This document shows positions 57,283-58,803 of a DNA stretch of 64,000 bases, in pieces; within the stretch, counting starts at the first letter, position 1, and each line of letters begins with the position of its first letter. The notes below the pieces were generated by a model. It searched no databases and was not told the origin of the DNA. It saw nothing but the letters and a program-made list of their open reading frames with translations. The stretch comes from Escherichia coli (GTDB lineage Bacteria; Pseudomonadota; Gammaproteobacteria; Enterobacterales; Enterobacteriaceae). A program made the position numbers and the translations under genes. The DNA lies in the NCBI RefSeq assembly GCF_050920415.1, contig NZ_CP169309.1. One strand, 5' to 3'.

Positions 57283-58803
57283 TTATTCAGGCTTTAATTT
57301 ATTGATAATAGAATCTACCATTTTAATGCCTGCCTCATTGACTATGACTGAATTGACTACTCTATCAAAATAGTCTTCTATATGGTGGGAAAATAGGAAA
57401 GCAGCACTTGATGGTTTTTTGTTCTTTTCAACTGCAGATTGCAAGACTTCATGAGGCGGAATTTTAAACCTTTTGCATGATGCAATGAGATATTCAAACT
57501 CTTCAAATGATAGACAAAAAATATTCTCTGTAGGGATATGATAGTTATGTTTAAACTTGTCATATATCTTATTCATCTCATCTTTAGCATAAGTATTAGC
57601 TAGGATACTACCATTGCCTAAGAAAAGGTTTTTATATGTAATGCAAATGATATATGAGTTAGCCCTGAATGGAGCTATTATTCGCTCATTAGAGTATATT
57701 TCTCGATTAACTTCGTGAGATTGTTCGATTGCTTTTAATACCGATTTCTTTATTTTTCCTGCAATATCCTCAGGGCGTAATGTTACCATGCCTTTTTGGT
57801 GTATCTCAACGCCTTTAGCATCAATGAAAATATTTGCCTCAGTATGTGGAATGAAATAATCAACTACTTTATTATCTTTAGGTAGTCGTTCTTTAAGGTA
57901 TTTTTCGTTATGAAAATCAATTTCGCTTTCTTTTAGTATTAATTCCAGTGCATTTTCAAATACATTTCCAAAGCTATCCATGAACTTCTCGGCATCAGTT
58001 CTTCTTAAAAGATCATATATGAACGTCTGTATGCTTGTTGAAGTCAGTTGTGTGTGTATCTGAAAATACTCTGAACCTTTTTTTATTAATGGTTTTTCAA
58101 GGAAAGGTGATGATGAGTAGTATTCAAGCAAAGGTTTATCATAGGTTTTTGATTTGCAAAATGTAGATAGTTCATTGTAATTTATTGATATTGCATCAAG
58201 AAATTTCTCAATGGTATTTCTAGGAATGATGTCAAATAATATAGTAAATGTATCTACATTCATTTTTCTCACGGGATGCTCTTCTGTTATGTGAGTTATT
58301 AATATGTAAGATAGCTTAAGAAAGTCTTCGATAGATACATTCGTGATAGTAAAAAAACTTGTCTTTATTTTATGGTTTTTTTCAAGTTCTGAAAATAGAA
58401 AGACTTGTCTGCTAATTGTGTTTAGAGCGTCAATTTTCTGGTAGATTCCTTGTTGGTATAGATTATTTCTAATGAAGAAATGCATGCCATTCTTCCTCTC
58501 AAGACCGATAGGAATAATGTTCAAGGTTTCATAAGTTTTTTGGAAGAGTTTTATTGCTTGATTTTTATCGAGGATTTTGAATTTTTTATTCTTGCCAGTT
58601 ACTGACGCAGACCACTTTAGACATAAATTAACAATCCAAGGCATGTGTCGTAACATGTGGATATTATCTTCAAATTTTTGTAAGTTATATTGCATACAGA
58701 ATTCGATAAATAAATCAGGGGAATAACCTTGGATTTCTGAACGAATAGCATCCATTCTTAACTTTGCAACCGCATCAGATTGAATATCTAATTTTTGAAT
58801 CAC
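57283..58803 (-). CDS. hypothetical AT-rich cargo protein located between prophage int and att
   Basis: 506 aa; no motif recognised with confidence; 12 bp downstream of int in the same orientation. Confidence 0.5.
   Translation of the reverse strand: MIQKLDIQSDAVAKLRMDAIRSEIQGYSPDLFIEFCMQYNLQKFEDNIHMLRHMPWIVNLCLKWSASVTGKNKKFKILDKNQAIKLFQKTYETLNIIPIGLERKNGMHFFIRNNLYQQGIYQKIDALNTISRQVFLFSELEKNHKIKTSFFTITNVSIEDFLKLSYILITHITEEHPVRKMNVDTFTILFDIIPRNTIEKFLDAISINYNELSTFCKSKTYDKPLLEYYSSSPFLEKPLIKKGSEYFQIHTQLTSTSIQTFIYDLLRRTDAEKFMDSFGNVFENALELILKESEIDFHNEKYLKERLPKDNKVVDYFIPHTEANIFIDAKGVEIHQKGMVTLRPEDIAGKIKKSVLKAIEQSHEVNREIYSNERIIAPFRANSYIICITYKNLFLGNGSILANTYAKDEMNKIYDKFKHNYHIPTENIFCLSFEEFEYLIASCKRFKIPPHEVLQSAVEKNKKPSSAAFLFSHHIEDYFDRVVNSVIVNEAGIKMVDSIINKLKPE

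What the first reader, a model, noticed from the sequence alone, without database searches (positions are those of the whole stretch)
57283..58803. AT-rich 506-aa cargo gene between prophage integrase and the att site
The ORF lies 12 bp downstream of int in the same orientation, about 130 bp inside the att core, at the very edge of a P2/186-like prophage. It is much more AT-rich than neighbouring phage genes and has no motif I can assign with confidence; FIDAKGVEIHQK near residue 330 weakly resembles a PD-(D/E)xK nuclease core. Integrase-proximal morons in P2/P4-like elements are often anti-phage defence or abortive-infection genes.
Basis: inference. Interest (0 to 1): 0.6.

Follow-up and report, generated by a model that had tools for sequence, protein, structure and literature searches.

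The report
Prophage-borne GapS1 anti-phage nuclease gene

Summary
A 506-aa ORF (57283..58803, minus strand) lies 12 bp after the integrase stop codon and 132 bp inside a 46-bp ssrA-derived att repeat. It has 31% GC against 48% for the rest of the prophage. It is not an orphan. It matches NCBIfam NF047931 "antiphage_GapS1" over the whole profile (428 bits, cut-off 320) and is 100% identical to RefSeq WP_000615103.1, annotated gapS1. GAPS1 was described by Mahata et al. as a single-protein PD-(D/E)xK defence. [quoted passage not shown] Two E. coli homologues shown there to protect against coliphages are 78% and 58% identical to this protein and occupy the same cI-int-gapS1 slot. The catalytic residues D315, D328 and K330 line up with the mutated D313 and K328 of Vibrio GAPS1. 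A confident AlphaFold model matches restriction-endonuclease-like folds. The int-att slot varies between related prophages (dCTP deaminase, HNH protein, RES protein, unknown proteins, or empty), and it is already reported as a minor P2 defence hotspot.

The parts
57283..58803 (-). gapS1 coding sequence, 506 aa, GTG start; identical to RefSeq WP_000615103.1
   Evidence: ORF list. NCBIfam NF047931 antiphage_GapS1, E=3e-128, 428.5 bits against a cut-off of 320, residues 20-474 matching profile positions 1-455 of 455. 100% nucleotide identity to genes annotated gapS1 in complete E. coli genomes.
57922..58803 (-). N-terminal, almost entirely alpha-helical region (residues about 1-294); presumed sensor or regulatory part
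   Evidence: AlphaFold2 model secondary structure, mean pLDDT 88.4. No Pfam domain. The sensor role is inferred from the single-protein architecture discussed by Mahata et al..
57499..57921 (-). C-terminal PD-(D/E)xK nuclease-fold core (residues about 295-435)
57814..57861 (-). Catalytic motif: codons D315 to K330 (VVD315-YFIPHTEANIFI-D328-A-K330)
   Evidence: These residues are invariant in 18 homologues down to 28% identity. They align with VVD313...IFID-A-K328 of Vibrio GAPS1, reconstructed from the published mutagenesis primers. D313A and K328A abolish defence.
58811..58814 (-). Shine-Dalgarno GGAG, 7 nt upstream of the GTG start, inside the 12-bp int-gapS1 spacer
   Evidence: Read directly from the sequence.
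58816..59829 (-). Prophage tyrosine integrase, immediately upstream in the same orientation
   Evidence: PHROG 1 integrase, E=4e-83; RefSeq WP_006666820.1, site-specific integrase.
59831..60463 (-). 186-type CI repressor, first gene of the leftward cI-int-gapS1 gene string
   Evidence: PHROG 4 transcriptional repressor; annotated 'phage repressor protein CI'.
57105..57150 (-). att core: 46-bp duplicate of the ssrA (tmRNA) 3' end, marking the prophage boundary
   Evidence: Exact 46-bp direct repeat with the 3' end of the real ssrA in the identical prophage of ETEC4089. The Klebsiella phage records start exactly at window 57151.

Best explanation
The gene is gapS1, a stand-alone anti-phage defence gene. 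[quoted passage not shown] The protein has an alpha-helical N-terminal part and a C-terminal PD-(D/E)xK phosphodiesterase/nuclease core (E300, D315, D328, K330). In the lysogen it is most likely translated from the leftward cI-int transcript; this step is inferred. By analogy with characterised family members, it stays inactive until a heterologous phage infects. A phage structural protein then activates the nuclease domain; for Vibrio GAPS1 and phage T7 this trigger is the major capsid protein. The cell enters growth arrest rather than dying, so the infection is not productive and the lysogen population and its prophage are protected. Family membership, catalytic motif, fold and genomic setting are shown here. 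Defence activity, the need for the D and K residues, the capsid trigger and dormancy are shown only for homologues. The trigger specificity and nucleic-acid target of this allele are inferred or unknown.
For: NCBIfam GapS1 match above the curated cut-off over the full profile. RefSeq annotates the identical gene as gapS1. Mahata et al. (bioRxiv 10.1101/2023.03.28.534373) report several relevant results. GAPS1 protects against coliphages. D313A and K328A abolish defence. T7 escape mutations map to capsid protein Gp10. Gp10 co-expression causes non-lethal growth arrest. Three cloned E. coli homologues protect, and deleting the native homologue in strain ZH142-A sensitises it to phage BASEL21. 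The cloned inserts WP_152927281.1 and EJP5250929.1 match P0018 and P0031 over their first 126 residues. These proteins are 77.7% and 57.7% identical to the window protein and lie in the same cI-int-gapS1 slot. The catalytic residues are invariant and in register with the Vibrio residues. The AlphaFold2 model is confident (pLDDT 88.4) and its top structural matches are PD-(D/E)xK nucleases, including the defence proteins Upx, Shedu and Can2. There is a GGAG ribosome-binding site and no terminator-like site between int and gapS1. The slot is variable, which fits accessory cargo.
Against: No experiment exists for this exact allele; the nearest tested homologue is 78% identical. The capsid trigger and dormancy were shown for the Vibrio protein. 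Judging from the 24-29% identity the paper gives for its E. coli homologues, that protein is probably only about 25-30% identical to this one, so trigger specificity may differ. The substrate (DNA or RNA, host or phage) is unknown for the whole family. Co-transcription with cI-int is inferred from gene spacing and from what is known of phage 186, not measured. PADLOC-DB v2.0.0 (2023) has no model that matches, which probably only reflects its date.
Confidence: 0.9

Rival explanations
1. It is a restriction-like nuclease that directly cuts incoming foreign DNA. It would act as a solitary type II/IV-like restriction enzyme or nickase, not as a sensor-activated growth-arrest system.
For: The best structural matches are restriction or nicking endonucleases: N.BspD6I, R.BspD6I small subunit, HindIII, Bse634I and FokI. 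The target of GAPS1 is unknown, and its authors leave open that it may also eliminate the phage.
Against: No cognate methyltransferase accompanies the cargo gene. The prophage Dam methylase is a conserved backbone gene, present whatever occupies the slot. In the family, escape mutations map to a capsid protein, and capsid expression alone arrests growth without phage DNA. Similarity to restriction enzymes is confined to the shared PD-(D/E)xK core at 10-15% identity.
Confidence: 0.07
2. It is a phage housekeeping gene of the 186-like phage, for example an accessory factor for integration, excision or replication that happens to have a nuclease fold.
For: It is tightly coupled to int (12-bp spacer, same strand) and lies next to att.
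Against: Among prophages with related integrases and conserved backbones, the slot is empty in one (L010). In others it holds unrelated genes: HNH protein, dCTP deaminase, RES protein and five different hypothetical proteins. GC content of 31% against 48% marks it as foreign cargo. Homologues also occur outside prophages, next to an AAA_15/AAA_21-family ATPase gene in Photobacterium and in Vibrio GMT islands.
Confidence: 0.02
3. It is an intact-looking but inactive or unexpressed remnant with no current function.
For: No expression data exist for this locus, and no convincing own promoter was found.
Against: The ORF is intact and all family-invariant residues are kept. The identical protein is recorded on at least 1000 contigs across Enterobacteriaceae, and its 90%-identity cluster has 285 member sequences. 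The gene and the adjacent 6.85 kb of prophage are 99.8% identical between E. coli and Klebsiella phages. A good ribosome-binding site is present.
Confidence: 0.02

Closest known systems
GAPS1 / GapS1 family (Vibrio parahaemolyticus WP_005477165.1; NCBIfam NF047931; Mahata et al., bioRxiv 10.1101/2023.03.28.534373)
   Same: Full-length HMM match above the curated cut-off. It is a single-gene system of similar length, with the PD-(D/E)xK site toward the C-terminus at equivalent positions (D315/K330 against D313/K328). It is AT-rich cargo of a mobile element.
   Different: The Vibrio prototype sits in a Gamma-Mobile-Trio island, whereas this one sits in a 186-like prophage. Identity to the prototype is low; the paper gives 24-29% for its E. 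coli homologues. The phage range and trigger of this allele have not been tested.
E. coli GapS1 homologues tested by Mahata et al.: WP_152927281.1 (= P0018 cluster) and EJP5250929.1 (= P0031 cluster)
   Same: They are 77.7% and 57.7% identical over about 503 residues. They have the same cI-int-gapS1 arrangement in 186-like prophages, and P0018 has the same 12-bp spacer. Both protected E. coli against coliphages when cloned.
   Different: They are different alleles, so the spectrum of phages restricted may differ. The tested WP_152927281.1 construct starts at the Met equivalent to M17 of the window protein, so the first 16 residues called here may be dispensable or not translated.
Upx (PDB 9wuf), a single-protein PD-(D/E)xK anti-phage system
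   Different: Upx is 1212 aa with two nuclease domains and shares only 10-11% identity. No PADLOC model of any kind, Upx included, matches the window protein at E<=1. The reported triggers differ (terminase against capsid). This is an analogy, not membership.
Defence hotspots of P2-like phages (Rousset et al. 2022, PMC9122126; bioRxiv 10.64898/2026.02.27.708500)
   Same: It is variable cargo at a fixed position in Peduoviridae prophages. [quoted passage not shown]
   Different: The classical P2 hotspots are gpA-portal (tin/old) and the Z/fun locus; this is the less populated int-att slot. In the identical ETEC4089 prophage, the gpA-portal slot also holds a DUF262/HEC-06 protein, outside the window.

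Membership tests
GapS1 (NCBIfam NF047931, antiphage_GapS1) | Whole-protein HMM score above the curated cut-off (320 bits), with full-length profile coverage | tested here: met
   428.5 bits, E=3.1e-128, protein residues 20-474 against profile positions 1-455 of 455.
GapS1 (NCBIfam NF047931, antiphage_GapS1) | Conserved PD-(D/E)xK active site toward the C-terminus, equivalent to the essential D313 and K328 of Vibrio GAPS1 | tested here: met
   D315, D328 and K330 are invariant in 18 homologues. The local sequence KVVD315...IFID328AK330GVE matches KVVD313...IFIDAK328GVE, reconstructed from the published mutagenesis primers.
GapS1 (NCBIfam NF047931, antiphage_GapS1) | Restriction-endonuclease-like (PD-(D/E)xK) three-dimensional fold | tested here: met
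GapS1 (NCBIfam NF047931, antiphage_GapS1) | Single-gene system on a mobile element, with no obligatory partner gene | tested here: met
   The only neighbours are int (a backbone gene) and the att site. The same solitary arrangement is seen in L013-L016 and in Klebsiella phage ST437-OXA245phi4.1.
GapS1 (NCBIfam NF047931, antiphage_GapS1) | Confers protection against phage infection | not testable with these tools
   Shown for homologues 78% and 58% identical, and for a native E. coli homologue by deletion. Not tested for this allele.
GapS1 (NCBIfam NF047931, antiphage_GapS1) | [quoted passage not shown] | not testable with these tools
   The capsid trigger was shown only for Vibrio GAPS1 with T7 Gp10. 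Growth arrest at high MOI was also seen with the native homologue of E. coli ZH142-A.
Upx (PADLOC 'uncharacterised PD-(D/E)xK defence protein') | Match to a PADLOC Upx HMM, and a dual-nuclease architecture of about 1200 aa | tested here: not met
   No PADLOC family matches at E<=1. The protein is 506 aa with one nuclease core. Only remote structural similarity is seen.
P2-like prophage int-att defence hotspot cargo | [quoted passage not shown] | tested here: met
   The att repeat lies at 57105..57150. Alternative cargo or an empty slot is seen in 8 sampled E. coli prophages and in phage Cartapus.

The most novel reading that the evidence does not exclude
The gene itself is known. Two readings remain open. 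(1) The int-att slot of ssrA-targeting 186-like prophages holds several further cargo proteins (L005 352 aa, L006 363 aa, L007 222 aa, L008 309 aa, L009 353 aa). None has a significant match in NCBIfam, and only L008 has a weak PADLOC match (a 2TM effector model, E=8e-05). At least one of them may be an undescribed anti-phage system. (2) A capsid-sensing defence carried by a phage must either tolerate its own P2-type capsid protein or be silenced during induction. That would imply an untested self/non-self discrimination or a regulatory switch.
Probability: 0.3. Interest if true: 0.45.

Novelty: already known. Interest (0 to 1): 0.15.

Why it matters
It matters little as a discovery. The gene is named in RefSeq and the family has been validated experimentally, including close E. 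coli homologues in the same prophage slot. The slot itself has been reported as a minor P2 defence hotspot. The result does show that a sequence-only reading (AT-rich cargo next to int, plus a D...DxK string) can correctly pick out a defence gene. It also records that this gapS1 allele travels on a phage whose sampled 6.85 kb is 99.8% identical between E. coli and Klebsiella pneumoniae. Finally, it points to neighbouring unannotated cargo genes at the same slot as screening candidates.

Tried and rejected
- PADLOC-DB v2.0.0 gave no match and Pfam gave nothing significant. These libraries either predate or simply lack a GapS1 model, so the negatives do not argue against defence.
- A sequence-profile search of the PDB found no solved relative; only fold comparison was informative.
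- A second search of the large protein database with the family alignment added just one weak hit and did not retrieve the Vibrio prototype. I therefore reconstructed the prototype's active-site sequence from the mutagenesis primers in the paper's supplement.
- The exact accession WP_000615103 appears in no paper in the library, nor in the held supplementary text of Mahata et al..
- The promoter and terminator scans gave only background-level matches (13 promoter-like sites against 10.5 expected; no minus-strand terminator after gapS1). They neither support nor exclude an own promoter.
- I considered a housekeeping role, a solitary restriction enzyme and a dead remnant, and rejected each for the reasons given under rival explanations.
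- I did not run the representative-library search, the metagenome or genome scans, or a third fold search, because the answer was already settled.

Full report
**Observation.** The window has a 506-codon ORF on the minus strand at 57283..58803, starting with GTG.
- The upstream gene (58816..59829, minus) is a tyrosine integrase, and the one before it (59831..60463) is a 186-type CI repressor.
- The integrase stop codon (58816..58818) and the GTG (58801..58803) are separated by 12 bp. These contain GGAG at 58811..58814, 7 nt from the start.
- GC content is 0.314 for the ORF, against 0.476 for the rest of the prophage in the window. GC3 is 0.278, against 0.482 for int.
- With this composition, 506 open codons have a chance probability of about 1e-18.

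**Prophage boundary.** The identical gene lies in E. coli ETEC4089 (NZ_CP122625.1), where the whole element can be read.
- It is a roughly 35-kb 186-like prophage with this gene order: gapS1, int, cI, an unnamed gene in the apl position, cII, fil, dam, gpA, portal, tail genes, D, ogr.
- It is flanked by an exact 46-bp direct repeat of the 3' end of ssrA (tmRNA): L003 872..917 and 35733..35778, with the real tmRNA at 35734..36096.
- In the window the repeat is at 57105..57150, 132 bp beyond the gapS1 stop codon and 160 bp after ypjA.
- The deposited Klebsiella phage records Kp4845-2 and relatives begin exactly at window 57151. They are 99.8% identical over the 6.85 kb available. The same phage therefore lysogenises E. 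coli and K. pneumoniae.

**Identity of the gene.**
- NCBIfam model NF047931.1 "antiphage_GapS1" matches at E=3.1e-128 and 428.5 bits (curated cut-off 320). The match covers profile positions 1-455 of 455.
- The exact protein is in the public collection as "MULTISPECIES: GapS1 family protein [Enterobacteriaceae]", recorded on at least 1000 contigs.
- RefSeq annotates the 100%-identical gene as gapS1 (WP_000615103.1).
- This allele occurs in 14 of 5426 complete E. coli genomes.
- PHROGs places it in phrog_14259, of unknown function. PADLOC-DB v2.0.0 (2023) and Pfam have no match.

**What is known about the family.** Mahata et al. (bioRxiv 10.1101/2023.03.28.534373) named GAPS1 after finding it in a Vibrio parahaemolyticus Gamma-Mobile-Trio island.
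- The single protein protects E. coli against several coliphages.
- HHpred places a PD-(D/E)xK phosphodiesterase domain toward the C-terminus. D313A and K328A abolish defence against T7.
- T7 escape mutants carry substitutions in the capsid protein Gp10.
- Co-expression of Gp10 with GAPS1 arrests growth without loss of viability.
- Three cloned E. coli homologues protect against coliphages.
- Deleting the native homologue of E. coli ZH142-A sensitises it to phage BASEL21.

**How close this allele is to the tested ones.** The paper's supplementary table gives the first ~400 nt of the cloned inserts.
- The WP_152927281.1 insert translates to 126 residues identical to P0018. The EJP5250929.1 insert is identical to P0031.
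- P0018 and P0031 are 77.7% and 57.7% identical to the window protein over about 503 residues.
- Both sit directly downstream of int in a cI-int-gapS1 string of a 186-like prophage. P0018 has the same 12-bp spacer.
- The tested WP_152927281.1 construct begins at the Met equivalent to M17 here. The first 16 residues of the annotated ORF are therefore not needed for function, and the true start (GTG 58803 or ATG at codon 17) is not settled.

**Active site.** An alignment of 18 homologues down to 28% identity has E300, D315, D328, K330 and E333 invariant, among others.
- Joining the published mutagenesis primers gives the Vibrio sequence DNKIQGKVV-D313-FLHQRNGTSIFID-A-K328-GVEPNQKI.
- The window protein reads DNKVV-D315-YFIPHTEANIFI-D328-A-K330-GVEIHQK.
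- The essential Vibrio residues therefore correspond to D315 and K330.

**Fold.** AlphaFold2 with this alignment gave mean pLDDT 88.4 and pTM 0.88.
- Residues 1-294 are almost entirely helical.
- The C-terminal part has the helix-strand-strand-strand-helix-strand order of the PD-(D/E)xK core. D315 sits at the start of one strand and D328-A-K330 in the next.
- Foldseek's only hit below E=0.001 is Upx.
- Upx is a 1212-aa single-protein dual-nuclease defence that recognises phage proteins. It is an analogue, not the same family, because no PADLOC model matches the window protein.

**The slot is variable.** Related integrases (81-91% nucleotide identity) occur in about 190 further complete E. coli genomes. 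Sampling eight of them, all with the conserved cI/cII/fil/dam backbone, gave the following between int and att:

| Locus | Cargo between int and att |
|---|---|
| L004 | HNH-motif protein |
| L005-L009 | five different hypothetical proteins, 222-363 aa; none with a significant NCBIfam match, one (L008) with a weak PADLOC 2TM-effector match (E=8e-05) |
| L010 | nothing |
| L011 | anti-phage dCTP deaminase (NCBIfam NF041025, 415.7 bits against 400) |

- The isolated phage Cartapus carries a RES-domain protein there.
- Klebsiella phage ST437-OXA245phi4.1 carries a 48.6%-identical GapS1 homologue there. The Phold preprint has already flagged it as GAPS1-like.
- The gene is thus accessory cargo in a recognised, if minor, hotspot.

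**Mechanism, with the status of each step.**
- Shown here: family membership, intact catalytic residues, nuclease fold, solitary gene, position inside the phage genome, and a good ribosome-binding site directly after int with no terminator-like site between them.
- Inferred: expression in the lysogen from the leftward cI-int transcript. This rests on my own knowledge of phage 186, where pL transcribes cI and int.
- Shown only for homologues: protection against phages, the requirement for the D and K residues, the capsid-protein trigger and non-lethal growth arrest.
- Unknown for the whole family: the nucleic-acid target and how the helical N-terminal part senses the trigger.

**Verdict.** However, the gene is an annotated member of a published, experimentally validated family, sitting in a hotspot that has been described. 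Novelty is "already known" and interest is low.

Noticed in passing
window 52330..56945 (+): The adhesin-like autotransporter gene ypjA/ehaD is split into two ORFs (52330..56229 and 56235..56945), so it is probably a frameshifted pseudogene or a sequencing error. The allele is only about 95% identical, with 11 gap positions, to the intact 4575-nt ypjA of ETEC4089. ypjA is also frameshifted or interrupted in several other genomes sampled.
   Followed up: partly
window 56946..57150: Only 160 bp separate ypjA from the ssrA-derived att repeat. No CP4-57-type island genes lie between ssrA and ypjA in this strain, and the 186-like prophage occupies the ssrA site instead. In other genomes a second integrase island follows the prophage in tandem (L004, L006, L008).
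   Followed up: partly
L003 10352..12133 (same prophage in ETEC4089; would lie about 2.6 kb beyond the window end): The classical P2 gpA-portal hotspot of this prophage holds a 593-aa DUF262 protein that matches PADLOC HEC-06 (E=4e-73) and GmrSD/SspE-like type IV restriction models. The phage therefore carries at least two defence cargo genes.
   Followed up: partly
L003 35128..35610 (other prophage end, outside the window): A 160-aa protein lies between ogr and the ssrA att site. It is conserved in phage Cartapus, where it is annotated 'putative exonuclease'. It has only weak matches: the C-terminal part of PDC-S48 (E=2e-7) and the C-terminal part of a DEDDh exonuclease model. Its function is unknown.
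   Followed up: no
L005 2932..3990, L006 2891..3982, L007 3316..3984, L008 2926..3855, L009 2916..3977 (all minus strand): Five different hypothetical proteins (222-363 aa) occupy the same int-att slot in related E. coli prophages. None has a significant NCBIfam match. Only L008 has a weak PADLOC match, to a 2TM effector model (E=8e-5). They are candidate uncharacterised defence cargo.
   Followed up: partly
window 62351..63268 (+): The prophage Dam-type DNA adenine methylase ORF is intact in the window, but is annotated as frameshifted in the otherwise near-identical ETEC4089 prophage.
   Followed up: no
window 58755 (codon 17 of gapS1): The start site is ambiguous. The functional construct of the 78%-identical homologue WP_152927281.1 starts at the Met equivalent to M17, and the NCBIfam profile starts at residue 20. 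The annotated GTG at 58803, however, has a good GGAG ribosome-binding site.
   Followed up: partly
window 12717..13714 and 47721..47796: There is a tRNA cluster (Ser-GCT followed by four Arg-ACG genes). ARAGORN also makes overlapping minus-strand Arg-TCG calls at two of them, which are probably artefacts. A tRNA with a CAT anticodon is called Met by ARAGORN; the corresponding gene upstream of ypjA in ETEC4089 is annotated tRNA-Ile, which is probably the same gene.
   Followed up: no
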